Origin: Vicinamibacterales bacterium
Lineage (GTDB): Bacteria; Acidobacteriota; Vicinamibacteria; Vicinamibacterales; SCN-69-37
Direction of reading: 5' to 3'
Length of the DNA stretch: 64,000 bases
Assembly (NCBI GenBank): GCA_035606665.1
Contig: DATNEY010000027.1
Location: 133,787 to 197,786, forward strand
Position numbers and translations under genes: made by a program. Below the pieces are notes generated by a model, which worked only from the letters and a program-made list of their open reading frames with translations, did no database searches and had not been told where the DNA came from. Shown piece by piece: positions 7,491 to 60,043 of this stretch. How positions within the stretch are numbered: position 1 is the first letter of the stretch; each line of letters begins with the position of its first letter.

Positions 7491-7820
7491 TTAGATATGG
7501 CGGTCGAGCATCTGCTTCAGCGTGCCCTTGTCCACCAGTCCGACGACCTGGTCGACGATCTGGCCTCCCTTGAAGAGCATGACCGTCGGGATGCCGCGAA
7601 CCATGTAGCGCATCGTGATGTTCGGATTGTCGTCAACGTTCAGTTTGCCGACCGCGACCTTACCCACATAGTCGGCCGCGACTGAATTGATGGCCGGTTC
7701 CATCGCGCGGCAGGGGCCGCACCATTCGGCCCAGAAATCCACGAGGACCGGGCTGGACGCTTTGAGCACGTCGGAATCAAAGTTGCCGTCGGTGTAGGTC
7801 TGCACGTTTTCGGAAGCCAT
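7491..7820 (-). CDS. trxA: Thioredoxin
   Basis: WAEWCGPC active site. I place the start at the internal MASENVQTY (ATG 7820-7818); the track ORF extends to 7916. Confidence 0.9.
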
Positions 7821-7860
7821 CTCGTCTCGGGCCTTTCCCCTTTGAACATCGAACCGTTCT

Positions 7861-9312
7861 TCACGTCTCCAGGAGGGCCGCTCGAATCGCGCGCGCCCGC
7901 CGGTACACTTTGACATATTCCCGCGCCGGGTTGGACCACGAATGATCGACGGCCATCCCGTTCAGCATGAGGCGATGCCAGACCGGCTTGTCGTGATACA
8001 GCCGCGCCGCTCGCCGCACCGTTTGGACGAACATCTCCACGGATGGGTGTCGAAACTTGAATCCATTGGCGCTCTGCGCCTTGGGCGTGTAGCCGTGAAC
8101 CGTGTCGTCGAGACCGCCTACGGCCCTGACGATCGGGACCGTTCCATACCTCAGGCTGTACATCTGATTCAGGCCGCAAGGCTCGAACTCTGACGGCATC
8201 AGGAAAATGTCGGCGCCGGCTTCAACGAGATGCGCGAGGCGCTCGTCGAAGCCAACCTTCACCGCCACTCTCGCCGGATGCGCCGCGGCGAGACCCGCCA
8301 GCGCGCGCTCGTATCGGGGCTCACCGGTCCCAAGAAACAGAAACGTGGCGTCCATGGCGGCCAGCTCCTCCGCCCCGCCGATGACGAGGTCCAGTCCCTT
8401 CTGCGCGACAAGACGCGACACCATTCCAATGACCGGACGACCGAGCGCGTCGTCTCCCATCGGCAGTCCGAAGCTGGCGAGCAGCGCGCGCTTGCACTCA
8501 CGCTTGCCGCTGAGATCGCCCGCATTGAAATGGGCAGGCAGAAACGGATCGGTCGCCGGATTCCAGAGATCCGTGTCAATTCCGTTCAGGATGCCCAGGT
8601 AGCGCCGGCCGAGAGCGCGCAGCACGCCGTCCATACCGGCTCCCGCCTCCTTTGTCCGCGTCTCTTCGGCATACGTGGGACTGACCGTCGTGACGTAATC
8701 CGCACTGGTGAGTCCCGCTTTGAGAAAACTGAACTTGCCCCAGAACTCTCCCGAATCCATTGTGAAGACCGACCACGGTAGACCAAGGGCGGGAACCGTT
8801 TCCTTCGGAAACACTCCCTGATAGGCAAGGTTGTGAATCGTCATCACAACTCCAGCGCCGGCGAGCGCTGGCCACCGCGGATCGTGTTCCAAACGGACGG
8901 GAATCAATCCGGTCTGCCAGTCGTGAACGTGCACGACGTCCACCGGCGGCCAGCCCGATTCTGCTTCCGCGAAGTCGAGCGCGGCATTGGAGAACGCAGC
9001 GAAGCGCCTGGCGTTGTCCGGATAGTCGGCGCCACGCTCTCCGTACAGGGCCTCGCGATTGAAGTACGCCGGAGCATCGACAAACACGGATCGACGACGG
9101 GGAGAATGGTCCAGTTGGTGATAGGTGATCCCATTGCGGCCACCGGGGACCACTCGAGCCCCAGGCGGATTGACCGACCGGTACTTTGGGATGACGACGG
9201 TAACGGCATGTCCGAGCGACTCGACCGCGGCCGGAAGCGCGCCGACGACGTCCGCCAGACCACCGGTCTTGGCCCAGGGCGCGGCCTCGGACGCCACCAT
9301 GAGGACGTGCAT
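7861..9312 (-). CDS. glgA: Glycogen synthase
   Basis: MHVLMVASEAAPWAKTGGLADVVGALP (KTGGL motif). C-terminal GT1 blocks are present. The start is set at MHVLMV; the track ORF extends to 9372. Confidence 0.9.
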   Translation of the reverse strand: MHVLMVASEAAPWAKTGGLADVVGALPAAVESLGHAVTVVIPKYRSVNPPGARVVPGGRNGITYHQLDHSPRRRSVFVDAPAYFNREALYGERGADYPDNARRFAAFSNAALDFAEAESGWPPVDVVHVHDWQTGLIPVRLEHDPRWPALAGAGVVMTIHNLAYQGVFPKETVPALGLPWSVFTMDSGEFWGKFSFLKAGLTSADYVTTVSPTYAEETRTKEAGAGMDGVLRALGRRYLGILNGIDTDLWNPATDPFLPAHFNAGDLSGKRECKRALLASFGLPMGDDALGRPVIGMVSRLVAQKGLDLVIGGAEELAAMDATFLFLGTGEPRYERALAGLAAAHPARVAVKVGFDERLAHLVEAGADIFLMPSEFEPCGLNQMYSLRYGTVPIVRAVGGLDDTVHGYTPKAQSANGFKFRHPSVEMFVQTVRRAARLYHDKPVWHRLMLNGMAVDHSWSNPAREYVKVYRRARAIRAALLET

Positions 9313-50052: not shown

Positions 50053-52539
50053 ATGGTCCTGCCGCCTCCCGTTCGAGTGTTCATTTCGTATTCATGGGAC
50101 GCGCCCGCACACCAAACGCGCGTTCTTGAACTGGCTCAGCGGCTTCGTCGCGACGGCATCGACGCGTGGCTCGATCGCTTCACGGTGTTTCCGCAAGACG
50201 GTTGGCCGAGATGGATGGAACGCGAGGTGAGGCAATCAACGTTCACACTGGTCGTCGCTACGGAGAACTACGCGGAACGCTATCGCGGCGATGCCCCGAA
50301 GGAAGTTGGCCGCGGCGCAACCTGGGAGGGCGCGATCGTTACAAGCGCCCTGTACAGGGCTGGGGCGCGCAACGACAAGTTCCTGCCCGTCGTGTTTTCC
50401 AAGACAGACATCGGTCACATCCCGGAGCCTCTTCAGTCGTCGACCTATTTTCAGGTCGACACGGAAGAAGGCTACGATGCTCTCTACCGTCTGATTACCG
50501 GGCAGCCGAGCATCGTTCCAGCCAGTGTTGGGCGCGTTCGACACAGGCCGATCGCTCAAGAAGTCGCCCCCAAGGGCGCGCCGCGTGTCGAGTTGCCCAT
50601 TCATGACCACGCGATCGTTCACTCGAATCTTCCGCGAATGCCCTACGGATTCTTCGGCCGCGAAGACGAGCTTCGTCGCATCGCGGACGTCCTGGCACCC
50701 GAAGCGCGTGCATGGGGCGTGCTAATCGATGGTCCTGGTGGAATCGGGAAGACGGCCCTTGCGATTCGGGCTGCGGAACTGACGCCCGTCGGACAATTCA
50801 GGCGAGTTGTGTTTCTGTCTTCAAAAACCCGCGAGTTGACACCAGATGGCGAGCGTGCGCTGGAGAACTTCGTCGTTCCCGCGTACCTCGACATGCTCAA
50901 CAATCTGGCGAGGCAAATCGGCAAGCCCGAACTGACCAACCACAGCGACATTGAGCGTTCAGCGTTGTTGCAAGAAGCGCTGCAAACCGAGAACGCGCTG
51001 CTGATTTTTGACAACCTCGAGAGCCTCACAATGGGCGACCGGGAGCGCCTCTTCGAGTTTCTCTCGCGATTGCCCCGGGGCTGCAAAGCGATTGTCACGA
51101 GCCGGCGTCGCACGGACATAGATGCTCGCGTCATTCGTCTCGAGAGATTGGCCCAGCCGGCCGCCCTGGAATTTATTGCCAAGCTGGCGGAGGATCGTCC
51201 GTTGCTCTTCAAGGCAACCGACGCCGAGCGAGTCGAACTCTACGCGGGCACTGGGGGTAATCCCCTCCTCATTCGCTGGGTCGCCGGACAACTCGGCCAG
51301 GGCCACTGCCGGACAGTCAAAGATGCGCTGTCGTTCATTGCCAAGGCCCCGAAAGGTAACGACCCGCTTGAGTTCATTTTCGGCGATCTCGCCGCCTCCT
51401 TTACGGCGGCAGAAAGTCGAGCGCTCGCAGCCCTCAGTCATTTCACGCTGGCCGCGGAGGTGCGTTTCGTCGCGGAAGTAGCGGAACTGTCGCAGAGCGC
51501 TGCTCAAACCGCCCTCGACGATCTGGCTGGGCGCGCGTTGGTGACAGCCGCGGACTCCGAAGGGAGAACCTTCACCCTGATGCCTCAGGTGGCCCATGTT
51601 TTGCGGACGTCGAGGCCCAACGACGTGGATGCAGCAAAGGAACGTCTGGACAACTATGCCTACACACTGATCATGGAGAACACCGTCCGGGCGGACCAGT
51701 TTCATCAACTAGAAGGCCAATGGCCCGTTGTGGCTGCGGCATTGCCCGTCTTCCTTGAAGGACCGAATCAACGACTCCAGAGCGTTTGCGCTGCCCTGGT
51801 CAGTTTCTTTCACTACTACGGGCACCTTGATGAGTGGCTGTCGCTCGAGCGCCAGGCCGAGGAACGGGCGGTGCAGGCTCAGGATTGGCTTCAGGCAGGG
51901 TGGCGGGCCTACCGCGCTGGATACGCGCTCCGGCTGCTCGGGTTTTCACCGGACATCTTTGCGCACGCAGATCGCGCAGAGACCCACTGGAGGAGCGCAA
52001 AAGCCGGAGCACGAGAACACGCTGCCGCGCTTCAACTGCGCGGACTGGCCTACGCGCTCGCCGGAGATCATAGCAAGGCGATCGGGGCATTTCGCGGTGC
52101 CGTAGAACTCGATCGGGGTGTTGCTCCAGACAGCGCTGATGTGGCGAATGATCTGAACACCTTGGCAGGCGCGGAATTGTCGGCTGACGACCTGGTCAGC
52201 GCCGAGGATCATCTTCGAGAAGCCTTGCGAATCGCGAACGCCGCCGGATACGACGAAGGGGTTGCATATATCACGACCAACCTGACCGAGCTTGCCCTCC
52301 AGCGGAAGGACTGGGCCGCTGCCGAGGGGCTGGCCAGGACTGCTATGGACCTGTCTCGCAGGCTCGGCAGGAAGGCCCTGATCGCTCAGGACCACGTCCA
52401 TCTGGCCAAGGCTCTCATCGGTCAGGGACTAGGCCATGAGGCTCGTTCGCATGCCAGTCGAGCTGTCGAGATCCTTAGCGTCCTGCCCTTTGTCCAGGAA
52501 CTCGATCGAGCCCGCGCCGTTCTCGCGGACTGCCCCTAG
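50053..52539 (+). CDS. TIR-superfamily (SEFIR/TIR_2-like) NB-ARC TPR STAND protein; probable antiviral (Avs-like) NTPase
   Basis: N-terminal VFISYSWDAPAHQTRVLELAQRLRRDGIDAWLD. P-loop GPGGIGKT, Walker B LLIFDNLE, IVTSRR, GGNPLLI. C-terminal TPR-like helices. Confidence 0.85.
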   Translation: MVLPPPVRVFISYSWDAPAHQTRVLELAQRLRRDGIDAWLDRFTVFPQDGWPRWMEREVRQSTFTLVVATENYAERYRGDAPKEVGRGATWEGAIVTSALYRAGARNDKFLPVVFSKTDIGHIPEPLQSSTYFQVDTEEGYDALYRLITGQPSIVPASVGRVRHRPIAQEVAPKGAPRVELPIHDHAIVHSNLPRMPYGFFGREDELRRIADVLAPEARAWGVLIDGPGGIGKTALAIRAAELTPVGQFRRVVFLSSKTRELTPDGERALENFVVPAYLDMLNNLARQIGKPELTNHSDIERSALLQEALQTENALLIFDNLESLTMGDRERLFEFLSRLPRGCKAIVTSRRRTDIDARVIRLERLAQPAALEFIAKLAEDRPLLFKATDAERVELYAGTGGNPLLIRWVAGQLGQGHCRTVKDALSFIAKAPKGNDPLEFIFGDLAASFTAAESRALAALSHFTLAAEVRFVAEVAELSQSAAQTALDDLAGRALVTAADSEGRTFTLMPQVAHVLRTSRPNDVDAAKERLDNYAYTLIMENTVRADQFHQLEGQWPVVAAALPVFLEGPNQRLQSVCAALVSFFHYYGHLDEWLSLERQAEERAVQAQDWLQAGWRAYRAGYALRLLGFSPDIFAHADRAETHWRSAKAGAREHAAALQLRGLAYALAGDHSKAIGAFRGAVELDRGVAPDSADVANDLNTLAGAELSADDLVSAEDHLREALRIANAAGYDEGVAYITTNLTELALQRKDWAAAEGLARTAMDLSRRLGRKALIAQDHVHLAKALIGQGLGHEARSHASRAVEILSVLPFVQELDRARAVLADCP

Positions 52540-53006: not shown

Positions 53007-54200
53007 TCAACGCAACCACTTATTGTCGAACACGGGCGAATACCGGTAGTTCTTCCCGCAGAACATCGCCTCGTCGACGACGGTCCGGAACGAGGGGTCA
53101 GTGGTTCGCCGGACCTTCATGATGAAATCGACGTCAATGAACGCCGGATCATCGCGTCGTGATCGGCAAATGTTCTGGATACGGTTGAAGTACACGATGG
53201 GATCACAAATCGTTCGCGGCGGTAGCGTAGGCATCCGCAGGTCGATTTCGGTCGGCGGCCGGTCTCTCCAATGAACTATTCCTGTGATCTCGCAGATCTG
53301 TCGAGCCTGAAACATGTGGAGGGCCAGGGCGCGGCCTTGCCCGGTAAGGGCTGGATCCCCCCGGTATAGATGCGGTGCGAGTTGAAAAGCTGCAAATGTG
53401 CCCATCACCGCGTAGCCCGCCAAGGGCGCCCGGCCCGTAAATAGTCTCTTGATGCTGACATCACTCGGATTCCCGTCCAGCTCGGGGAGCAAGAACCAAT
53501 ACAGCATCGTGCCCATGAGCGCGGGATAGAACCAGTGAATCTGACTGAGCGACTGGACGTGGAATAACGCGAACTGCGCCAGCGCGCCAAGGCGGATTGA
53601 GCGTCGCCGCGCGAGAAGGCCCCAGCTCATCACCATTTCCAGTACGACAACGTACACGCACGCGGCCGCAGTCAGGCCGCTCGGGATCAACCATAAGGGG
53701 TGATAGAGAACCGCACCGGACATCCACTCGCGATTCAGTTTGAGCGTGCCGGCCCACACGTAGAAGGAAACAAGAACCAACGGCACGGACCACCGCTTTG
53801 CCGGAGAAAAGAGGAAAACCAGATTCAGCCAAAAGAGCATGTAGAACTCGTTCGCTCGGTAGCGGTAGTCGAGCGACACAAGGCCGAAGAGGTAGAGGTT
53901 TGCACAAAGCAGCAGCCACCACCATGAGCGCCATTTGGCGCGTCCCAGCTGAACTCCCGCGAAGACGATCAATACGCCGTACCCGGCAAGAAGGAATCTA
54001 ATGGGTTCGATGCTGTCAAATCGGATCTGCCAGCAGTCGGCAAAATGCGGCCAGCAGATGGGCTCGTTTCGTGCCAGCAGCAGCGAAAGGGTGTTCGTAT
54101 TCAGGAAATAGAGCGCAACGATGACGTGGCCGCCGAGGATCGCCCAAGCGTACCGTTGGAGACGGGGATCGCTGGCGATCTCTGCGAATGGGTCGCGCAT
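53007..54200 (-). CDS. Polytopic membrane protein, HTTM-like (vitamin K gamma-carboxylase / SdpB-related fold)
   Basis: Start placed at MRDPFAEI. SLDYRYRANEFYMLFWLNLVFLFSPAKRWSV and YVWAGTLKLNREWMSGAVL resemble the HTTM core motifs as I recall them. The C-terminal ~120 aa are soluble and Cys-containing. Confidence 0.55.
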   Translation of the reverse strand: MRDPFAEIASDPRLQRYAWAILGGHVIVALYFLNTNTLSLLLARNEPICWPHFADCWQIRFDSIEPIRFLLAGYGVLIVFAGVQLGRAKWRSWWWLLLCANLYLFGLVSLDYRYRANEFYMLFWLNLVFLFSPAKRWSVPLVLVSFYVWAGTLKLNREWMSGAVLYHPLWLIPSGLTAAACVYVVVLEMVMSWGLLARRRSIRLGALAQFALFHVQSLSQIHWFYPALMGTMLYWFLLPELDGNPSDVSIKRLFTGRAPLAGYAVMGTFAAFQLAPHLYRGDPALTGQGRALALHMFQARQICEITGIVHWRDRPPTEIDLRMPTLPPRTICDPIVYFNRIQNICRSRRDDPAFIDVDFIMKVRRTTDPSFRTVVDEAMFCGKNYRYSPVFDNKWLR

Positions 54201-54214
54201 GCGGAACGGCCGAA

Positions 54215-56605
54215 CTACTTGACCAACTTCAGCGTCACCGACCGCGTCTCCCCGTCGGCCAGGTTGAACGGCGTGGCCTTGAAGGCCAGAGCACGCAACA
54301 ACTCCGGATCGCGCCACGCGCCGCTCGGCATCTGAGGGACTGCGATTGCGAGGTAGAGCCCCGGCACCAGCCCGGCAATTCGGAACGCGCCCGCCTGATT
54401 GGGTCGACCGAGCTTGACGAAGCGCGACGGAACCGCCCACCGATTGGGGTCGGCGGAAAACAGGATGGCGTCGTAGGCAGTGGCGGGCTTGTCGCCATCG
54501 CTCACAGTTCCTGTGACTGAAGCACCGGTCTTCTTGAACGTAATCTCGACCGCGTCGATGTCGCCGCGCCCGAACTCGATCGGCGAATCGGTCACGTCCT
54601 TACCGCCTACCGTCACGTGCGCCATGACCCACGAGGCTGGCCTGGCGGAGGCGCGAATTACCGCCCGCCCAATGAGGCCCCGGATCACGAACGCGCCGTC
54701 GTCCGTCCACTCCGGTCCTTTGGCGAGCGTCTCGTATGGCGAAGAAATGAAATCCGTCGGTACCTGTTCAATCGAGATGTCGCGACCCGACGGATACGGG
54801 TCTGGTCCTTCGAATATCACTCGACCGCGAAGGGTCGACGGCGGCCGGGCCTCGACTCGCACTCCGGTGGTGGTGGGTGCTGTCACCTCGACGGCCGTGA
54901 ACCCATACACGTTGTCCGCGGGCACTCCGGCTGCGTTCGGTCGGGCCCAGCTGGGGACTTCGGCTTGAATTGCGTACGAGCCCTCGGGCACGTTTCGAAA
55001 GACAAATGACCCGTCCGCGGCGCTCGTCGCAGAAGCCCTCGTGAGCATGATGCGGACGTCGCCGCCGGGCGCAGGCAGTAGGGCCAACGTGGCGGATGGC
55101 ACGGGCATCCCAGCGGGAGTGACGACCGTGCCACGAACCTCGGTGGTCCGCGCCGGCACGAGCGGAAAGTCCACACCCAGAACGTCCGCGTCGGAGCCGA
55201 CCTGGACGAGCGTTGCGCCCATCCCTAGCCGCGTACCGGGATACAGGGTCAGCGCAAACCCACTTCGGTCCGAGCCGGCCACGAACGGCCCCGATAGCGC
55301 CATGACGTAGTAGCTTCCAGGCGACACGTCGGGGATCCGAAACGCGCCCGTGTCGTCCGTTGGCTGCGACTCAATCCGCGAGGTGACCGGCACCAGCCGC
55401 GTGGAATTGACGCCGAACTCGGTGGTGGCCAGACCCACCAGGATCCCCGGGGCGGGATCGCCGAACTCGTCGAGCACGCGGCCCGCGACCGCCCGCGGTC
55501 TCGGCATCGCAACATCGGCGCGATCAAACTCAGCGCCGTCGGTCAGATCGATGCGAGAACCGATTGGAGATGCTTTGGTCCATCCGTAGGTGCGGTCGAC
55601 GAAACCCGGAGCAGCCACGCGGACGATGTATCGGCCGCTGGGCAGTTCGGTGACCGTAAAACGGCCTTGCGCATCGGTGTAGAACACACCGCGCGATTCG
55701 AACACAGGGCCGTCTTCGCGCGTGATCGTGACGCGTGCCCCTTCAATGGGCCGGGACGAATCGAGGCCGGTGATCTTTCCCGCCAGTCTGCCCGTTCCGC
55801 GAGCCGCCGATCGCACGGGGGCCACACCTGCCGGACCGATTGATGCCCCCGACTGGGCGGTCGTTGCGGCAAGCGTGATGTCGATGCCCGCGAGCACGCT
55901 GGTCGACTTGACACTCACGGACTGAGCATCCTCAATCCGGAGGACGCCGGGGTAGTACGTCGCCGACGCTCGAGAGGCCGCGCGTGCAGTTGCGGCTGGC
56001 GCGAGGCGCGAGAGCGGCGCTGACTCGATGACGTAGTCGCCCGGCGGGAGCGAGTGCAGGCGGTAGTTTCCTCGGTCGTCGGTTCGCACCGGCTGAATGC
56101 CAGTGGCGAGCGGCGCGTTCGGACGACCGGTCACCCGAACCTGAACCACCATATTCGCAACCGCTTGGCCGCTCGCGTCCACGACACGGCCTTCAATGGC
56201 GGCGGCGCTCTCGACCACGATATCCCTGGTTGCGGCGCCGAGTGCGCGAATCTCGACACTGGTCGCCGCGACAGCAACGCCTCGCTCAGAGTTCGCCGGA
56301 ACAAAGAACCCAGGCTTGACGGCATCCAGTCGGTACAGCCCTGGGGTGAGATGCTCAAAAAGGAAGCGGCCCTCAGTGTCGCTATCGGAGGTAATGACAG
56401 CGCCCGTAGGTGACGTGAGCGTCACGCGGGCTCGGCGAATCGGCGATGCGACCCCAGCGTTGTTGAGCACAACGACTCGCCCGCGAAGCGACGCCGACGT
56501 CGTCTGCGCGCGTACCTCCACGTGCCGCACTACGGCGAGCGACGCAACGGTCATCACGCTAGCCCAGAACAGTCCACTGATCAGGACCCTGGATCGCAGA
56601 CTCAT
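54215..56605 (-). CDS. Secreted protein with multiple carboxypeptidase-regulatory-like (CarboxypepD_reg) repeats
   Basis: Start placed at MSLRSRVLISGLFWASVMTVASLAV. Repeated G(R/K)V.D..G.P...A.V......TD..G.F....L.PG.Y units. Confidence 0.8.
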   Translation of the reverse strand: MSLRSRVLISGLFWASVMTVASLAVVRHVEVRAQTTSASLRGRVVVLNNAGVASPIRRARVTLTSPTGAVITSDSDTEGRFLFEHLTPGLYRLDAVKPGFFVPANSERGVAVAATSVEIRALGAATRDIVVESAAAIEGRVVDASGQAVANMVVQVRVTGRPNAPLATGIQPVRTDDRGNYRLHSLPPGDYVIESAPLSRLAPAATARAASRASATYYPGVLRIEDAQSVSVKSTSVLAGIDITLAATTAQSGASIGPAGVAPVRSAARGTGRLAGKITGLDSSRPIEGARVTITREDGPVFESRGVFYTDAQGRFTVTELPSGRYIVRVAAPGFVDRTYGWTKASPIGSRIDLTDGAEFDRADVAMPRPRAVAGRVLDEFGDPAPGILVGLATTEFGVNSTRLVPVTSRIESQPTDDTGAFRIPDVSPGSYYVMALSGPFVAGSDRSGFALTLYPGTRLGMGATLVQVGSDADVLGVDFPLVPARTTEVRGTVVTPAGMPVPSATLALLPAPGGDVRIMLTRASATSAADGSFVFRNVPEGSYAIQAEVPSWARPNAAGVPADNVYGFTAVEVTAPTTTGVRVEARPPSTLRGRVIFEGPDPYPSGRDISIEQVPTDFISSPYETLAKGPEWTDDGAFVIRGLIGRAVIRASARPASWVMAHVTVGGKDVTDSPIEFGRGDIDAVEITFKKTGASVTGTVSDGDKPATAYDAILFSADPNRWAVPSRFVKLGRPNQAGAFRIAGLVPGLYLAIAVPQMPSGAWRDPELLRALAFKATPFNLADGETRSVTLKLVK

Positions 56606-56631
56606 GGTCGCCTCGAACTTGGATGGCCGGC

Positions 56632-57234
56632 TTACGAACGACCCCATGCCAGAACGACGGCGGCTATCGACGCCGCCGTGCGCAACACCCACATCATGCG
56701 GCTGCCGGCAATGGAGTGCAAGATCTTCCGCCGGAAGACGGCCCTCCCCGCGTTGTCGAGGCCAGGCGTCGGCGCAAAAATCTCTCTGGATAACAAGAGG
56801 ACCGGTACGGTCCTCGCGATTCCGAAGGCGGTCATCGTGACCACGGCCAATGTGCTATCGCCGATGATCAGCAGCAACGCGATCATCAGGTAGTAGCTCG
56901 CAAACGGCACGACAGTGAGCCAGCCGATGCCGAGGATCGTTCCGAAGATCATCGGATACGCCGGCCACGACCACCGAGTCCATTGACGAGGAACCAGCCA
57001 GTGACCTGTGGGCACTCTTGCGCCGACCAGATCCAGCAGGAATGCGCCGACGCAGACTGCCACAAGCACAGGCTGCCGCACGCCGCTGGGAAGAGCTCGG
57101 CACAAGACGCCCACCTGCCCCACCAACAGGCCATTGATCGCGCCACCGAAGACCATGGACACGGCCATCAGTGGCACGAGTAGCGCGGATTGCCATCGCC
57201 GAAATAAGCCCACGTCGACCGACGTGGCGATCAC
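56632..57234 (-). CDS. Hypothetical integral membrane protein (about 6 TM)
   Basis: Hydrophobic 200-aa ORF with no recognised family. Confidence 0.5.
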   Translation of the reverse strand: MIATSVDVGLFRRWQSALLVPLMAVSMVFGGAINGLLVGQVGVLCRALPSGVRQPVLVAVCVGAFLLDLVGARVPTGHWLVPRQWTRWSWPAYPMIFGTILGIGWLTVVPFASYYLMIALLLIIGDSTLAVVTMTAFGIARTVPVLLLSREIFAPTPGLDNAGRAVFRRKILHSIAGSRMMWVLRTAASIAAVVLAWGRS

Positions 57235-57354
57235 ATTGATCGAATTCAGCCCTCAAGGGGACTTCGCGCTCGACACACCGGTAATGGCCGCGAGGCCAAT
57301 AAGCACGGTCAGCGACGCGTAGTCATCCATGGCCTGACAACCCCACTTCTTTGG

Positions 57355-57717
57355 CTAGTCGCACGAACCCCCTTCGTGAACCGAGCAACACCATGGCAGG
57401 CCAAACATCTCGCCGCCCCCAACCTCCATCTCGCCATCGCATCTGTAGTCGCAACACAGGCCGTCGGGGCTTCCTTCCCAGCACTGCACACCATCGCACG
57501 AGTTGCATGGGATGCTTGAGCCGGGACACACGTCGCCGCACAGGGAAGTGCAGCCGCTGGCCTGCACCGTGCTCGAGAACCCGGCAAACGCCACCGTGCC
57601 CGCAAGGATTCCCAAGGCCCGGCGAGAGAAGCGATCGATGCCAGGCACGCGCTCTTCCGCGACTGCTAGTTGCGCGAGTTTACGGTCGAGAAAGTCAAGA
57701 ATCACGATTACCTCCAT
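57355..57717 (-). CDS. Tat-signal cysteine-rich mini-protein (12 Cys and 2 Trp in a 67-aa predicted mature part)
   Basis: FSRRALGILAGTVAFAGFSSTVQA-SG, then CTSLCGDVCPGSSIPCNSCDGVQCWEGSPDGLCCDYRCDGEMEVGGGEMFGLPWCCSVHEGGSCD. GGAGG lies 5 nt before an in-frame GTG at codon 5. Confidence 0.6.
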   Translation of the reverse strand: MEVIVILDFLDRKLAQLAVAEERVPGIDRFSRRALGILAGTVAFAGFSSTVQASGCTSLCGDVCPGSSIPCNSCDGVQCWEGSPDGLCCDYRCDGEMEVGGGEMFGLPWCCSVHEGGSCD

Positions 57718-57752
57718 TAGAGAGAAGCGAGTCTATCCATTCGCTCGATGCG

Positions 57753-58304
57753 TCACTTGACGCCGAGCGCGCTGATGAGTGAATCAAAACCTTCCCGCTT
57801 GTGAGTGACCATGCCGTCTCGCACGCGTCCGGAAGCATCGATGCCCATCGCGTACGGGTATGTGACAAGGCCCAGGTCGCGCCGAGTCGCATTCGCCGGG
57901 TCATAAACCACTGTGATGCCACTGGGCACGTCTCCAATGTGGTCAAACAGTTCATCTCGAGTGCCGGGGTACACAAAGAGATACCTGAGTGACGAGCCAG
58001 TCTCGGCTGCCACCTGGCCAAGGACGAGCAGGGCCTTTCGGCACAGCGCGCATTGCTTGGCGCCAACGAGGATGACTTGCGCCGCATTGGGCTCGGGTAG
58101 CTGCTTTGTCGCGCCACTGGCGGTCACCACCTCGACACCAGACCACAACGAACCAGCAGCCAACCCCTGCCGCTTACGACCGTCCGCCGACACCAGCCGC
58201 CGCCGCGCCAAGTCCCTGAGCAGAAGGACCGTCGTGAAACTCAACAGCAGTGTGAGCGCCCACAGGAGCGCGTAGGACAGGGTGAAAGCCGTGCTACCGG
58301 TCAT
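57753..58304 (-). CDS. Membrane-anchored thioredoxin-fold protein (MauD/TlpA-like)
   Basis: N-terminal TM helix, CALC (CxxC) in VGAKQCALCRKAL. Overlaps the mauE-like gene by 11 nt. Confidence 0.7.
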   Translation of the reverse strand: MTGSTAFTLSYALLWALTLLLSFTTVLLLRDLARRRLVSADGRKRQGLAAGSLWSGVEVVTASGATKQLPEPNAAQVILVGAKQCALCRKALLVLGQVAAETGSSLRYLFVYPGTRDELFDHIGDVPSGITVVYDPANATRRDLGLVTYPYAMGIDASGRVRDGMVTHKREGFDSLISALGVK

Positions 58305-58878
58305 GATTCGCCTTTGGCGCCACTTGCAGAGACACTACGCCAGCGATAAGTACCCAGAACAACCAAGCGGTGACCGCGAGCAGCGCTCCGACGGCAAGTT
58401 CATCGACAGCCAAGGCCCACACCGGACGACTCGCGCATGATGCCGGTCCCATCACTGCCTGGCTCGCGATCGCGCCCGCGCCGGCCGCGATCGTCACGTT
58501 GCGAACGATGGCGCTGGTTCCCGAGCGCCCCTCCGCCCCATCGCCGCCAAAACATCCGCAGTCGATTTTGCTGCCGCGCACTCGAAGCACGAACAGGACA
58601 ACGGCGAATCCGATCATCATCGCGGCTACAAGTGCTGAGATGAGACCAACTTGAACGCCAGCCAATATGGCGATGCCTGCGAACAACTCCCCGACTACGA
58701 GCAGCCCTGCGATTTGCGCAGATCGGCCGGTTGCCTTCGCGCCGAGCACTTCCGAAATGAAGGCGATCACGCCACTTGGTGCTCTCGCCTTTCCCACGGC
58801 TGCTCGAAGCAAGATGCCGGCGACCAGCAAGCGCAGACCGATCACCGACACATCGACAGCGCCACACTCCGCTGCCAC
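58294..58878 (-). CDS. MauE/DoxX-family membrane protein
   Basis: Four TM segments and the family-typical DCGCFGG motif. Confidence 0.75.
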   Translation of the reverse strand: MAAECGAVDVSVIGLRLLVAGILLRAAVGKARAPSGVIAFISEVLGAKATGRSAQIAGLLVVGELFAGIAILAGVQVGLISALVAAMMIGFAVVLFVLRVRGSKIDCGCFGGDGAEGRSGTSAIVRNVTIAAGAGAIASQAVMGPASCASRPVWALAVDELAVGALLAVTAWLFWVLIAGVVSLQVAPKANHDR

Positions 58879-58886
58879 GCGGTGGC

Positions 58887-59537
58887 CTACGAGATCTGCG
58901 CTGCCACACGCTCCAGGTCAGTGCGGGTCAGTCGATTCTTATGGAACGAACTGACGACTACACCGAATCCGTTTCGATGGAACGCCAGGCAGTGCGCGGC
59001 AGCGAATGCCGCCCGGTTCTCATGACTCTCGTAATAGTGCGCCTCCACGCGCTCACCGTCGCCCACCGTGATGACCAGTGGAACGGTTTGCTGGGCCTTG
59101 CCACGCACCTGGGGCATCGTTGCCAATGGCGCGACGAAAACGCTGAGCCCCGAATTGATAAACTCGCCGTGACTACGCGCAGAGGCGCGGACGGCGGAAA
59201 AACAAAGCTGCTTACTGTCCTCGACGTTGAGGAACGCCCCACGTTGCCCAACGGCCTCCGAACAGGCCGTCGTCGACTGAAGCTTGAAATCCGCCGGCAG
59301 CCACCTTGGCTGCGGATATGTGGCCAGGAGTTTCTGCCCGCGGCTTTTAGCGTCGGCCACGGTGAGTTGCTGGTCGTGCCGGTCTAACGCATTAGCCGGT
59401 TCCGGTCGGCGACCATTTCTCTTGTCGCGCCGGCCCCACAACATGCTGCCCGCCACGAACGGCAGCGCAAGAAGGGAGACGACGAGGCCCCGACGACTGG
59501 GCTGCAGGGGTTTGGAGTCAGAAGTCTGTTCGGCCAT
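58887..59537 (-). CDS. Membrane-anchored hypothetical protein
   Basis: Start placed at MAEQTSDSKPLQPSRRGLVVSLLALPFVAGS. The periplasmic domain is unrecognised. The track ORF extends to 59600. Confidence 0.45.
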   Translation of the reverse strand: MAEQTSDSKPLQPSRRGLVVSLLALPFVAGSMLWGRRDKRNGRRPEPANALDRHDQQLTVADAKSRGQKLLATYPQPRWLPADFKLQSTTACSEAVGQRGAFLNVEDSKQLCFSAVRASARSHGEFINSGLSVFVAPLATMPQVRGKAQQTVPLVITVGDGERVEAHYYESHENRAAFAAAHCLAFHRNGFGVVVSSFHKNRLTRTDLERVAAQIS

Positions 59538-59599: not shown

Positions 59600-60043
59600 C
59601 TATGTTCGTGGGATCGTGGTCGCAAGCGGTATTGCTTGCCGTGTAGTCCTTTTTGTTGCCGGCGCGTCCAATTCAGCAGCCGTGCGGAAGTCAGCAGCCA
59701 CCGCTGCTATCGTTTGCGAGCCACTGCACGCTGCGCGGTACTCCGTCGGCGTGAGCCTGACGTAGTCCCGAAACAAAGCGGTCAGACGAGGCGGCGTGAG
59801 ACCGACGGCAGACGCCACCTCCTTCTGTAGGAGCGAAGGATCTCGCAGCAGCTCCTGAGCTCTCCTCAAGCGGCGCTCGCGACGCCAGGAGGCAAATGTG
59901 CAGCCGGCTTGTCGGACAATAATTGATTCAAGCGTGTGACGATGAGTGCCCAGCTGGCTGGACAACTCGGTCAGCGACAGCCGTAAATTGCCATCCAGCA
60001 ACTCGTCGGCACGCCGAAACAGACCGACGGCGTCGTATCCCAC
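59600..60043 (-). CDS. AraC-family HTH transcription regulator (DNA-binding domain only)
   Basis: LSLTELSSQLGTHRHTLESI...LLQKEVASAVGLTPPRLTALFRDYVRLTPTEYR gives the two HTH units. Confidence 0.8.
   Translation of the reverse strand: MGYDAVGLFRRADELLDGNLRLSLTELSSQLGTHRHTLESIIVRQAGCTFASWRRERRLRRAQELLRDPSLLQKEVASAVGLTPPRLTALFRDYVRLTPTEYRAACSGSQTIAAVAADFRTAAELDAPATKRTTRQAIPLATTIPRT

What the first reader, a model, noticed from the sequence alone, without database searches (positions are those of the whole stretch)
53007..58878. Operon coupling MauE, a MauD/TlpA-like thioredoxin, a Tat-exported 12-Cys mini-protein, an unknown membrane protein, a carboxypeptidase-regulatory-like giant and an HTTM-like membrane protein
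All six minus-strand genes are closely spaced: an 11-nt overlap, then gaps of 35, 120, 26 and 14 nt. MauE and MauD are known as accessory factors needed to mature the disulfide-rich small subunit of methylamine dehydrogenase, yet this locus lacks the large subunit (MauB), MauG and amicyanin. Instead the thiol-redox pair is combined with an HTTM-like protein, the fold of vitamin K-dependent gamma-glutamyl carboxylase and of SdpB (which is involved in maturing a disulfide-containing toxin peptide). It is also combined with a large secreted beta-sandwich repeat protein. The combination suggests a dedicated envelope pathway for oxidative folding, and possibly further modification, of the Cys-rich and Glu/Asp-rich mini-protein. 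I am not aware of a described system with this gene set. An AraC-type regulator and a membrane-anchored unknown lie immediately upstream.
Basis: partly seen in the sequence, partly recalled or inferred. Interest (0 to 1): 0.8.

Follow-up and report, generated by a model that had tools for sequence, protein, structure and literature searches.

The report
Mau-like module with selenocysteine MauF
A rare soil-bacterium gene cluster places three helper proteins known from methylamine dehydrogenase assembly (MauE, MauD, MauF) around a new tiny cysteine-rich exported protein; its MauF copy very probably carries selenocysteine in place of MauF's only invariant cysteine, and the vitamin-K-carboxylase-like gene next door has the right fold but is only a local neighbour.

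Summary
The six minus-strand genes exist. MauE passes Pfam, and the thioredoxin-like protein is MauD-like (hhalign 97.9%). The Tat-signal 12-Cys mini-protein is conserved. The last gene has the GGCX/HTTM fold (Foldseek prob 1.0) although no HTTM profile detects it.

Two things change the picture. First, the "unknown membrane protein" is a MauF homologue, and the 120-nt "gap" before it is coding. An ATG at 57330 opens a reading frame that crosses an in-frame UGA (57255-57253) into the annotated ORF. That UGA aligns with MauF's single invariant Cys (WSPCGYSSI versus KSP-U-GLNSI). A GGUC-loop hairpin follows 33 nt downstream. It fits the bacterial SECIS consensus and shows compensatory changes across nine distinct sequences. 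This is a predicted selenoprotein that is absent from the 2026 catalogue of 119 families.

Second, the conserved module is: Tat "YPxPxYLP" protein, MauE, MauD-like, Cys-rich protein, Sec-MauF-like, and often the Cys-free CarboxypepD_reg giant. The HTTM-like gene joins it only in the closest relatives. None of 63 other loci of that family carries any module gene.

Best reading: a MauFED-type oxidative maturation system for a new substrate without methylamine dehydrogenase. There is no evidence for carboxylation.

The parts
59600..60043 (-). Small AraC-type HTH regulator (147 aa), immediately upstream of the module
   Evidence: Pfam HTH_18 8.7e-14. Present in the 99%-identical locus L006. Not seen in the more distant module loci, so membership is uncertain.
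58887..59537 (-). Conserved Tat-signal/anchored protein of unknown family (216 aa from ATG 59537) with invariant RR and a YPxPxYLP motif; always directly upstream of MauE
   Evidence: Homologues precede MauE in L009, L010, L078, L079 and L080. No Pfam, NCBIfam or PDB relative. Not MauJ-like.
58294..58878 (-). MauE: DsbB-like quinone-linked disulfide-generating membrane protein, active-site motif DCGCFGG
   Evidence: Pfam PF07291 9.7e-15, 55.4 bits against a cut-off of 27. BLASTP versus Paracoccus MauE 1e-5 across the CGC region. Function of the family from bioRxiv 10.64898/2026.03.05.709764.
57753..58304 (-). MauD-like membrane-anchored thioredoxin-fold protein, CxxC = CALC
   Evidence: hhalign of the family (A3) versus five real MauD (A7): prob 97.9, E 6.6e-13, 170 columns. 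A distant family member hits Redoxin/AhpC-TSA. Fails the MauD equivalog cut-off (13.5 versus 188.6 bits).
57355..57705 (-). Tat-signal Cys-rich acidic mini-protein (116 aa precursor, about 67 aa mature, 12 Cys) in the mauA position; invariant C-W and C-C-D motifs
   Evidence: Only about a dozen relatives exist in 1.84 billion representatives. No similarity to MauA (hhalign prob 2%) or to any PDB chain.
56632..57330 (-). MauF-like membrane protein, predicted selenoprotein (232 aa, Sec at residue 26); annotated in public records only as the truncated 178-200 aa ORF
   Evidence: Read-through translation is conserved in all relatives. hhalign of the full-length family (A12) versus MauF (A6): prob 97.6, E 2.9e-12, 174 columns, with U on MauF Cys79. 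phmmer with Paracoccus MauF hits only this ORF in the window.
57253..57255 (-). In-frame UGA, predicted selenocysteine codon
   Evidence: Same frame and same context, (S/T/A)P-U-G-x-N-S-I, in nine distinct sequences. It aligns to the only invariant Cys of MauF. TGA is a normal stop in neighbouring genes.
57210..57227 (-). SECIS-like hairpin: 7-bp stem CCACGUC/GACGUGG with apical loop GGUC (57217-57220), the loop starting 33 nt after the UGA
   Evidence: -11.9 kcal/mol. RNAalifold predicts it independently. Five of 7 pairs show compensatory changes, 89% of cells are paired versus 53% or less in slid controls, and 0 of 500 shuffles reach the observed covariation. It is the only such hairpin after any of about 1,830 TGA triplets in the window. 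It meets the bSECIS criteria given in PMC13188914.
54215..56605 (-). Secreted CarboxypepD_reg (transthyretin-like beta-sandwich) repeat protein, 796 aa, no Cys at all
   Evidence: Pfam PF13620 4.4e-48, five stretches. Zero Cys. Follows the MauF-like gene in L006, L007/L011, L008, the P0127 contigs and L080. Not seen after it in L079.
53007..54200 (-). GGCX/HTTM-fold membrane protein of an unannotated family (397 aa); adjacent, but probably not a core member of the module
   Evidence: AF2 pLDDT 93.5. Foldseek hits are human GGCX only. Invariant K154 in AGTLKLNxEW aligns to GGCX K218. No Pfam HTTM hit for any of 50 members. The family is widespread and not linked to the module.

Best explanation
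This is a MauFED-type maturation module that has been detached from methylamine dehydrogenase and dedicated to a new substrate, a Tat-targeted, acidic mini-protein with 10-12 Cys. Shown: the locus encodes homologues of all three Mau accessory membrane proteins that act on the disulfide-rich MADH small subunit. These are MauE, a MauD-like anchored thioredoxin, and a MauF-like protein. The order MauE-MauD-substrate is the same as mauE-mauD-mauA. This arrangement, preceded by a Tat-signal 'YPxPxYLP' protein, is conserved in every related locus found. The MauF-like gene is read through an in-frame UGA that replaces MauF's only invariant Cys and is followed by a covarying SECIS-type hairpin. Inferred mechanism: the precursor is exported by Tat through its long conserved leader. 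MauE (CGC motif) generates disulfides using quinone and passes them to the MauD-like CxxC protein, which oxidises the mini-protein's cysteines. The MauF-like protein contributes a single highly reactive selenol/thiol that acts as a redox relay, reductant or isomerase so that the 5-6 disulfides form correctly. By the positive-inside rule the Sec lies at the cytoplasmic end of a TM helix, so MauF may pass reducing equivalents across the membrane in a CcdA-like way. The Cys-free beta-sandwich giant and the YPxPxYLP protein are probably partners or scaffolds of the mature mini-protein rather than substrates. The GGCX-fold gene is a lineage-specific neighbour. If it acts on the mini-protein at all, that is a recent addition.
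For: MauE: Pfam 9.7e-15. MauD-like: hhalign 97.9%, E 6.6e-13. MauF-like: hhalign 95.1%, E 3.2e-8 for the annotated ORF, rising to 97.6%, E 2.9e-12 over 174 columns when the read-through N-terminus is included. phmmer with Paracoccus MauF gives 1.8e-4 and is the only Mau hit in the window. Real mau clusters have the order mauE-mauD-mauA. Module synteny holds in L006, L007/L011, L008/L009, the P0127 contigs, L010, L076, L078, L079, L080 and L081. The Cys-rich family has a conserved leader and conserved CW/CCD motifs. Sec evidence: the UGA is conserved in frame in nine sequences; residues on both sides are conserved and homologous to MauF WSPCGYSSI; L010 has no start codon between the UGA and the conserved region. 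The GGUC loop is invariant at +33 nt with varying stems, and the encoded peptide changes (TSVDV versus PPVGG) while pairing is kept. TGA is used as a stop by neighbouring genes. MauE has DsbB-like activity with a CXC active site, and MauD is proposed as its DsbA-like partner (10.64898/2026.03.05.709764). The giant has zero Cys.
Against: There are no expression, selenium or protein data; everything comes from metagenomic DNA. Sec machinery (selA/B/C/D) could not be looked for outside the 64-kb window, and the window has no tRNA-Sec. Rfam has no matching SECIS model. The nine sequences are related, and part of the stem encodes conserved peptide (Pro-Pro/Gly-Gly codons pair by themselves), so covariation is partly entangled with coding. 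The window-clade MauF-like protein lacks the first 55 or so residues of MauF. The mini-protein shows no detectable homology to MauA, and its AF2 model is unusable (pLDDT 43). Tat export followed by periplasmic disulfide formation is inferred only by analogy with MauA. MauF's biochemical role is unknown even in MADH systems.
Confidence: 0.6

Rival explanations
1. One reading: all six genes form one pathway in which the HTTM/GGCX-like enzyme further modifies the Glu/Asp-rich mini-protein after oxidative folding, for example by carboxylation or another quinol/O2-driven modification.
For: The GGCX fold and the catalytic-Lys motif are conserved. There is a 14-nt gap to the giant, and the adjacency is kept in relatives whose mini-proteins are 67-99% identical (L006, L011). 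The mature peptide has 11 Asp+Glu. Another member of the HTTM-like family (L001) sits beside an AraC regulator, small secreted Cys-rich proteins and DsbA-like genes. Some bacterial HTTM proteins are fused to DCC-type thiol oxidoreductases, and MloH carboxylates an Asp.
Against: 0 of 63 other loci of the family contain any module gene, even with profile HMMs at E<=1. Module loci at about 50% identity and below (the P0127 contigs, L008, L079, L080) have other genes after the giant or after MauF. There is no propeptide-like recognition element and no evidence for vitamin K-type substrates.
Confidence: 0.08
2. Housekeeping system: MauE plus the MauD-like protein is simply this organism's general DsbB/DsbA-type disulfide pathway, and the Cys-rich ORF, the giant and the others are unrelated neighbours.
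For: MauE is proposed as a generalist disulfide-forming enzyme, common in phyla lacking DsbB, including Acidobacteria such as Solibacter. About 90% of species with MauE lack MauA.
Against: The Cys-rich gene lies between the MauD-like and MauF-like genes in every locus with sequence there, across protein identities down to about 28%. The whole module is extremely rare: no MauF-like relative in 185,579 species-representative genomes and about a dozen mini-proteins in 1.84 billion representatives. That rarity is incompatible with a housekeeping role.
Confidence: 0.1
3. The UGA is a true stop. MauF is split into a 25-aa (or about 80-aa) N-terminal micro-protein and a 200-aa protein that starts at the downstream GTG. 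The hairpin is a coding-sequence coincidence or a translational-coupling element.
For: Gene callers and NCBI annotate only the downstream ORF (P0124, 178 aa). A GTG lies 18 nt after the UGA in most sequences. There is no tRNA-Sec or sel gene in the window and no Rfam SECIS hit.
Against: The UGA falls exactly on the single invariant Cys of MauF, with homologous residues on both sides. The six codons between the UGA and the GTG are conserved as protein. L010 has GCG instead of GTG, so its conserved segment could not be translated without read-through. The GGUC loop is invariant at a fixed distance with compensatory stem changes. No other stop codon (TAA or TAG) ever occupies this position in nine sequences.
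Confidence: 0.1
4. The mini-protein is a secreted defensin-like, bacteriocin-like or metal-binding Cys-rich peptide. The module provides folding and perhaps immunity, and the giant is an unrelated surface protein.
For: Small size, 10-12 Cys, a strongly acidic mature region, its own strong SD, and rarity with patchy distribution.
Against: A Tat rather than Sec signal with a long conserved N-region, as in MauA, suggests cytoplasmic handling or partner binding. There is no transporter, protease or immunity-like gene in the conserved set. The Cys-free giant co-occurs in several clades.
Confidence: 0.1

Closest known systems
mau cluster accessory genes mauF, mauE, mauD with mauA (Paracoccus denitrificans PD1222 plasmid 1, Methylobacterium, Indioceanicola; fetched as L070-L074)
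   Same: Homologues of all three accessory membrane proteins are present. The order MauE-MauD-substrate is identical. The substrate has a long twin-arginine leader with a conserved N-terminal region and about 12 Cys, as MauA does.
   Different: There is no MauB, MauG, amicyanin or MauJ. The substrate is half the size of MauA and not detectably homologous. Only one Trp is invariant, so a Trp-Trp TTQ is unlikely. The MauF-like gene is downstream of the substrate rather than first in the cluster, is shorter in the window clade, and has UGA instead of the Cys codon. There are extra conserved partners (the YPxPxYLP protein and the CarboxypepD_reg giant).
[quoted passage not shown]
   Same: A CGC-FG active-site motif and a 4-TM protein next to an anchored CxxC thioredoxin-fold protein outside any MADH context.
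   Different: That work describes a generalist pathway and does not involve MauF or a dedicated substrate gene. Here the pair is embedded in a rare, substrate-specific module with a Sec-MauF-like protein.
Bacterial selenoproteins that replace a redox Cys of a Cys-containing homologue (for example DsbA-like, TlpA-like UGC and YeeE/YedE GUxSG families; catalogue in PMC13188914)
   Same: In-frame UGA at the position of a conserved Cys, a bSECIS hairpin inside the coding region 16-37 nt downstream with G-G/U at the start of a small apical loop, and truncated public annotation.
   Different: No MauF or MauF-like family is among the 119 listed families and subfamilies. The Sec context SP-U-G-x-N-S-I is not listed. 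It is a polytopic membrane protein, which is uncommon among known selenoproteins.
[quoted passage not shown]
   Same: The 397-aa protein has the overall GGCX membrane fold (TMq up to 0.69), the AGxxKLxxxWxxG motif with the catalytic Lys, and a C-terminal disulfide-containing extracytoplasmic domain.
   Different: Pfam HTTM does not detect it, and sequence identity to GGCX is 12-15%. It is much shorter (397 versus 758 aa). Its family occurs in varied contexts, for example fused into an operon with a GMC oxidoreductase. No carboxylation substrate is identified.
Quinohemoprotein amine dehydrogenase gamma subunit QhpC (own knowledge, not tested here)
   Same: A small, Cys-, Asp- and Glu-rich subunit whose Cys residues form crosslinks (Cys-Trp quinone, Cys-Asp/Glu thioethers). 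The mini-protein has invariant C-W and C-C-D motifs.
   Different: QhpC maturation needs a radical-SAM enzyme (QhpD), a flavoprotein (QhpG) and a protease/exporter, none of which is in the module. No sequence similarity was found with any PDB chain.

Membership tests
MauE (Pfam PF07291; DsbB-like disulfide-forming membrane protein) | Profile match above the curated cut-off | tested here: met
   55.4 bits against a cut-off of 27, E 9.7e-15, profile positions 5-125 of 128.
MauE (Pfam PF07291; DsbB-like disulfide-forming membrane protein) | CXC active-site motif followed by Phe-Gly in the loop between TM3 and TM4 | tested here: met
   KIDCGCFGG in the window protein. The same motif is in L009, L010, L078, L079 and L080. 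The motif is defined in 10.64898/2026.03.05.709764.
MauE (Pfam PF07291; DsbB-like disulfide-forming membrane protein) | Ability to replace DsbB / quinone-dependent oxidation of a Trx-fold partner | not testable with these tools
   Needs complementation of an E. coli dsbB mutant.
MauD (TIGR02661 equivalog) | Score above the equivalog cut-off | tested here: not met
   13.5 bits against 188.6, E 0.038. Hence it is called 'MauD-like', not MauD.
MauD (TIGR02661 equivalog) | Architecture: N-terminal membrane anchor plus thioredoxin fold with CxxC, encoded directly after mauE | tested here: met
   hhalign A3 versus A7: prob 97.9, E 6.6e-13, columns 7-180 including the anchor, CALC on CPVC, and the PY motif. 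There is an 11-nt overlap with MauE.
MauF (methylamine utilization protein F) | Sequence homology to bona fide MauF proteins | tested here: met
   hhalign A12 versus A6: prob 97.6, E 2.9e-12, 174 columns. phmmer gives 1.8e-4. No curated Pfam or NCBIfam model detects even Paracoccus MauF, so no curated cut-off exists to apply.
MauF (methylamine utilization protein F) | Invariant WSPCGYSS Cys | tested here: inconclusive
   The position is occupied by an in-frame UGA in all nine sequences. The feature is met only if the UGA is decoded as Sec.
MauF (methylamine utilization protein F) | Part of a mau cluster with mauB, mauA and mauG | tested here: not met
   No MauB, MauA, MauG, MauJ or amicyanin homologue in the 64-kb window or in the related loci.
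MADH light chain MauA | Sequence or fold homology to the TTQ-bearing light chain, with the two TTQ tryptophans | tested here: not met
   hhalign A5 versus A8 gives prob 2%. No PDB hit at E<=10. Only one Trp is invariant. The fold could not be tested (AF2 pLDDT 43).
MADH light chain MauA | Long twin-arginine leader, about 12 Cys, gene directly after mauD | tested here: met
   This is resemblance in design only, not homology.
Bacterial selenoprotein gene | Conserved in-frame UGA aligned with Cys in homologues, with conserved coding sequence on both sides | tested here: met
Bacterial selenoprotein gene | bSECIS: 3-9 nt apical loop with G in its first two positions, 4-16 bp stem, 16-37 nt from the UGA, MFE <= -7.5 kcal/mol (criteria from PMC13188914) | tested here: met
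   GGUC loop, 6-7 bp stem, 32 nt spacing, -8.8 to -11.9 kcal/mol. Compensatory changes occur in 5 of 7 pairs.
Bacterial selenoprotein gene | Sec-decoding machinery (selA, selB, selC, selD) in the same genome | not testable with these tools
   Only 64 kb of a 712-kb contig is available. There is no tRNA-Sec in the window.
HTTM / vitamin K-dependent carboxylase family (Pfam PF05090) | Profile-level sequence match | tested here: not met
   No HTTM hit for the window protein or any of 50 family members. The family profile versus PDB finds no GGCX chain at E<=10.
HTTM / vitamin K-dependent carboxylase family (Pfam PF05090) | GGCX membrane fold | tested here: met
   Foldseek: 15 GGCX chains at E 7e-8 to 2e-5, prob 1.0, TMq 0.59-0.69; the next hit has E 0.5.
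HTTM / vitamin K-dependent carboxylase family (Pfam PF05090) | Catalytic Lys (human K218) in the AGxKKLxxxW motif | tested here: met
   Invariant K154 in WAGTLKLNxEW. The only hhalign local alignment places it on GGCX 207-229 (GGCX sequence verified against PDB). The alignment alone is weak (E 0.006).
HTTM / vitamin K-dependent carboxylase family (Pfam PF05090) | Quinol- and O2-dependent carboxylation or epoxidation activity | not testable with these tools
   Requires biochemistry.

The most novel reading that the evidence does not exclude
The Cys-rich mini-protein is the small, covalently cross-linked (possibly Cys-Trp quinone or Cys-Asp thioether bearing) subunit of a previously unknown periplasmic redox protein. 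Its large partner is the Cys-free beta-sandwich giant and/or the YPxPxYLP protein. Its maturation depends on a selenocysteine-containing MauF. This would show that MauF is a catalytic redox enzyme and would define a second, non-MADH branch of Mau-type cofactor/small-subunit biogenesis.
Probability: 0.15. Interest if true: 0.9.

Novelty: new variant of a known kind. Interest (0 to 1): 0.7.

Why it matters
MauF has been genetically required for the methylamine dehydrogenase small subunit since the 1990s, but it has no known biochemical function and no curated model. Selenocysteine is almost always found at catalytic redox positions. A lineage that replaces MauF's single invariant Cys with Sec therefore marks that residue as a catalytic redox centre and gives a direct experimental handle (75Se labelling, Sec/Cys/Ser swaps). 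It would also add a polytopic membrane protein family to the bacterial selenoproteome, where it is absent from the 2026 list of 119 families and is mis-annotated as a truncated ORF in public records. The complete MauF/E/D trio is conserved around a substrate that is not MauA. This indicates that the Mau accessory system is a portable machine for maturing small disulfide-rich Tat substrates rather than something specific to methylamine metabolism. It also identifies a new, very rare Cys-rich protein family whose function is open.

Tried and rejected
1. HTTM at sequence level: Pfam and NCBIfam on the protein and on 50 family members, plus the family profile versus PDB, all gave no hit. Only fold search recovered GGCX. 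afdb50 was unavailable.

2. Linking the HTTM-like gene to the module: six contig look-ups and 58 genome loci were scanned with phmmer and profile HMMs, and none contained a module gene. Clustering stop-to-stop ORFs around the HTTM-like family to find a recurrent partner was unproductive, because high-GC spurious ORFs dominated.

3. Mini-protein as MauA, QhpC or another known fold: there was no PDB sequence hit and no hhalign signal to MauA. The AF2 model was too poor (pLDDT 43) to search. The large proteins hit by the mini-protein profile (P0134, P0135, P0137) are He_PIG, response-regulator and other repeat proteins, so those matches are spurious.

4. Protein-pattern scans for the MauF-like family found nothing in genome contigs or metagenome contigs, and the mini-protein alignment was too variable for such a scan. 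A DNA pattern across the UGA context succeeded instead.

5. The intergenic region as a structured RNA or attenuator: folding was no better than shuffles (z -0.5). Promoter and terminator scans were at chance level. The terminator-like hairpin listed there turned out to be the SECIS candidate.

6. Rfam has no matching SECIS family.

7. The upstream YPxPxYLP protein has no Pfam or PDB relative and is not MauJ-like.

8. Global TGA recoding was rejected, because TGA terminates the MauD-like, HTTM-like and TPR genes.

Full report
OBSERVATION. The window is high-GC (about 62-65% around the locus). It matches a Vicinamibacterales (Acidobacteriota) MAG: the HTTM-like and membrane proteins are 100% identical to NCBI 'MAG TPA: hypothetical protein VN700_09405/09415' on a 712-kb contig. 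Two details need correction. The 120-nt 'gap' before the membrane protein is coding sequence, as described below.

COMPONENT IDENTITIES.
- MauE is confirmed by Pfam (55.4 bits against a cut-off of 27). It carries the DCGCFGG motif that a 2026 preprint identifies as the CXC active site of a DsbB-like, probably quinone-linked, disulfide-generating enzyme (10.64898/2026.03.05.709764).
- The thioredoxin-like protein gives only a sub-threshold MauD hit on its own. I fetched five real mau clusters from the plasmid collection (Paracoccus denitrificans, P. methylovorus, P. kondratievae, Methylobacterium, Indioceanicola). Against their MauD proteins, its family aligns over the full length with hhalign probability 97.9% and E 6.6e-13, including the N-terminal anchor and the CxxC.
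- The giant is a CarboxypepD_reg repeat protein with no cysteine at all in 796 residues, so it cannot be a substrate of the thiol-redox pair.
- The last protein has no Pfam or NCBIfam hit. Neither do 49 relatives, and the family profile finds no GGCX chain in the PDB. However, a high-confidence AlphaFold model (pLDDT 93.5) matches only human GGCX structures (15 chains, prob 1.0, TMq 0.59-0.69; the next hit has E 0.5). The family's invariant Lys154 in WAGTLKLNxEW aligns with the catalytic K218 of GGCX.

THE 'UNKNOWN MEMBRANE PROTEIN' IS MauF-LIKE AND A PREDICTED SELENOPROTEIN. The annotated 200-aa ORF belongs to a tiny family with six hits in 5.8 billion clusters. Against real MauF proteins it gives hhalign probability 95.1% and E 3.2e-8. 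Paracoccus MauF is also the only Mau protein that hits anything in the window by phmmer.

The DNA upstream of the annotated GTG is nearly invariant between relatives whose proteins are only about 50% identical. Translation shows why. An ORF opens at ATG 57330, runs 25 codons to a TGA (57255-57253), and continues in the same frame through six conserved codons into the annotated start. The same in-frame TGA, in the context (S/T/A)P-TGA-G-x-N-S-I, is present in L007, L008 and the distant L010. In L010 the upstream part is 82 codons long, which restores full MauF length, and no start codon lies between the TGA and the conserved segment.

With the TGA written as Cys, the match to MauF improves to probability 97.6% and E 2.9e-12 over 174 columns. 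The TGA falls on Cys79 of WSPCGYSSI, the only invariant cysteine of MauF.

Thirty-two nucleotides after the UGA starts the apical loop of a 7-bp hairpin, CCACGUC-GGUC-GACGUGG (-11.9 kcal/mol). A scan of JGI metagenomes with a DNA pattern spanning the UGA context returned seven more loci, five of them distinct. All have the same in-frame UGA, the MauF-like core downstream, and the GGUC loop in the same register with different stems: CUCCUCC/GGAGGAG, CCGCC/GGCGG, CCCCGCC/GGUGGGG, and CCGUGCC/GGCGCGG with a bulge.

Across nine distinct sequences, 89% of cells pair, against 53% or less when partners are slid. Five of seven apical-stem pairs show compensatory double changes, and none of 500 shuffles reaches the observed covariation. 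RNAalifold predicts the same helix. The peptide encoded over the stem differs between clades (TSVDV versus PPVGG) while pairing is kept, and synonymous third positions covary (CCU/GGA, CCA/GGU, CCG/GGC).

The element satisfies every criterion of the bacterial SECIS consensus quoted in a 2026 review: loop of 3-9 nt, G in the first two loop positions, stem of 4-16 bp, spacing of 16-37 nt, and MFE of -7.5 kcal/mol or lower (PMC13188914). It is the only such hairpin after any of about 1,830 TGA triplets in the window. TGA is an ordinary stop for the neighbouring MauD-like, HTTM-like and TPR genes. That review's table of 119 selenoprotein families and subfamilies contains nothing MauF-like.

Caveats. 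No sel genes or tRNA-Sec lie in the window, and the rest of the genome could not be read. Rfam has no matching model. The sequences are related, and Pro-Pro/Gly-Gly codons pair by themselves to some extent.

THE CONSERVED MODULE. Gene-neighbourhood data come from contig look-ups and the new loci. They give a consistent set: a Tat-signal protein of about 200-240 aa with invariant RR and a YPxPxYLP motif (no known family), then MauE, then MauD-like, then the Cys-rich protein, then Sec-MauF-like. In L010 and L078 the MauF-like gene comes first. A CarboxypepD_reg protein follows in the window clade, L008, the P0127 contigs and L080.

The order MauE-MauD-substrate is exactly that of mauE-mauD-mauA. 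The Cys-rich proteins share several features:
- a long leader with a conserved N-terminal segment (DF[LF]xR[KR]LAxxA) ahead of the twin arginine, a design also seen in MauA (MLGNFRFDDMVEKLSRRVAGxTSRRG);
- seven further invariant Cys;
- an invariant C-W motif and an invariant C-C-D motif.

They are not detectably homologous to MauA or to any solved chain. Their second Trp is not conserved, which argues against a TTQ-type Trp-Trp cofactor. The family is extremely rare: 3 hits by word search and 5 genuine small hits among 1.84 billion representatives (the large hits are spurious). The MauF-like family is absent from 185,579 species-representative genomes.

THE HTTM-LIKE GENE IS A LOCAL NEIGHBOUR. 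It follows the giant in the 99%-identical contig L006 and in L011, which comes from the same sample as the 67%-identical mini-protein of L007. Its family is large (208 or more clusters). It spans Methylomirabilota/Rokubacteria, Gemmatimonadota, Bdellovibrionota (including Bdellovibrio bacteriovorus), Myxococcota, Binatia, Planctomycetota and Acidimicrobiia. In 63 independent loci, none has a MauE, MauD-like, MauF-like or mini gene within about 8 kb, by phmmer or by profile HMMs at E<=1.

Module loci at about 50% identity or less carry other genes after the giant, and none of the seven new loci has an HTTM-like gene. In L001 a 58%-identical HTTM-like gene lies behind an AraC regulator, among three small secreted Cys-rich proteins that each sit next to a DsbA-like gene. 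Some bacterial HTTM proteins are also fused to DCC-type thiol oxidoreductases.

MECHANISM (INFERRED). By analogy with MADH small-subunit maturation, and from the demonstrated DsbB-like activity of MauE, the proposed steps are:
1. The precursor is exported by Tat.
2. MauE makes disulfides de novo and hands them to the anchored MauD-like CxxC protein.
3. The MauD-like protein oxidises the mini-protein.
4. The Sec/Cys of the MauF-like protein supplies a reactive nucleophile for a redox relay, reduction or isomerisation step.

The positive-inside rule places the Sec loop, which is followed by an R/K-rich segment, on the cytoplasmic side in the long L010 form. This suggests a CcdA-like transfer of reducing power. 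One family member also gives a weak DsbD_2 hit (E 0.027). The Cys-free giant and the YPxPxYLP protein are candidate partners of the mature product. None of these steps is shown experimentally.

COMPARISON AND NOVELTY. The closest known system is mauFED plus mauA. This locus is a variant of it, without the dehydrogenase, with a new substrate family, with extra conserved partners, and with Sec in MauF. MauE/Trx pairs outside mau clusters are already known to be common, so that part is ordinary. The complete trio around a non-MauA substrate and the selenocysteine are not described in the literature I could search. I rate it a new variant of a known kind, with interest 0.7. The main value is a testable clue to MauF's long-unknown function, together with a candidate new membrane selenoprotein family.

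Noticed in passing
L001 2189-2491(-), 6236-6541(-), 11648-11956(-), with 7630-9209(+): Beside a 58%-identical HTTM-like homologue (preceded by an AraC-HTH gene) lie three small Sec-signal Cys-rich proteins of about 100 aa with 8-10 Cys, all ending in ...PD. At least two of the three sit next to a DsbA/Thioredoxin_4 gene and a 711-aa TPR protein. This looks like a separate, repeated 'Cys-rich peptide + dedicated DsbA' cassette.
   Followed up: partly
L004 6439-10924 and L005 932-5243: In another branch of the HTTM-like family, the gene overlaps a GMC-family FAD oxidoreductase upstream and a 507-564-aa unknown protein downstream, both by 4 nt. This suggests a different, tightly coupled operon for this GGCX-fold family.
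   Followed up: no
window 56632-57168 (public protein P0124): The public NCBI annotation of the MauF-like gene is a 178-aa 'hypothetical protein'. This truncated ORF misses the N-terminal TM helix, the UGA and the conserved GLNSINVIATSVD segment, which is a typical selenoprotein mis-annotation.
   Followed up: yes
L070 2389-3222 (Paracoccus denitrificans mauF): Bona fide MauF matches no Pfam-A or NCBIfam model at E<=0.1-1, although it is named in RefSeq. The family lacks a curated profile, which is why the window protein looked 'unknown'.
   Followed up: yes
L010 766-780: In the most distant module relative the Sec context is P-U-G-C-N-S-I-C. This U-G-C motif resembles the CGC active site of MauE and the UGC motif of known TlpA-like selenoproteins.
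   Followed up: no
L008 3947-4165: In the roughly 50%-identity relative, the gene after the giant is not the HTTM-like one. It is an unrelated membrane protein beginning MLWSLPVALLL...WKGGGFGMFSE, cut by the contig end and not identified.
   Followed up: no
window 50053-52539 (+): Immediately downstream of the locus, on the opposite strand, is an 828-aa TIR/SEFIR-NACHT/AAA_16-TPR protein (Pfam families precomputed for the identical gene in L006). It is a STAND-type, possibly defence-related, gene unrelated to the module.
   Followed up: no
L006 53-4999 (expected to correspond to the window beyond about 62.4 kb; not verified): Upstream of the TPR gene lies a hemocyanin/tyrosinase-like protein (612 aa), followed by a Peptidase_C14 (caspase-like) gene and a Y4kD_C-domain gene. 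It is a copper oxidase cluster whose relation to the module, if any, was not examined.
   Followed up: no
L079 614-5371: In this module relative, a 1,332-aa protein with a CarboxypepD_reg-like N-terminus (judged by eye from the sequence) and a protein that looks like an ECF-type sigma factor lie directly upstream of the YPxPxYLP-MauE-MauD-Cys-rich-SecMauF set. Neither assignment was tested by profile search. This hints at a different regulator from the AraC protein of the window.
   Followed up: no
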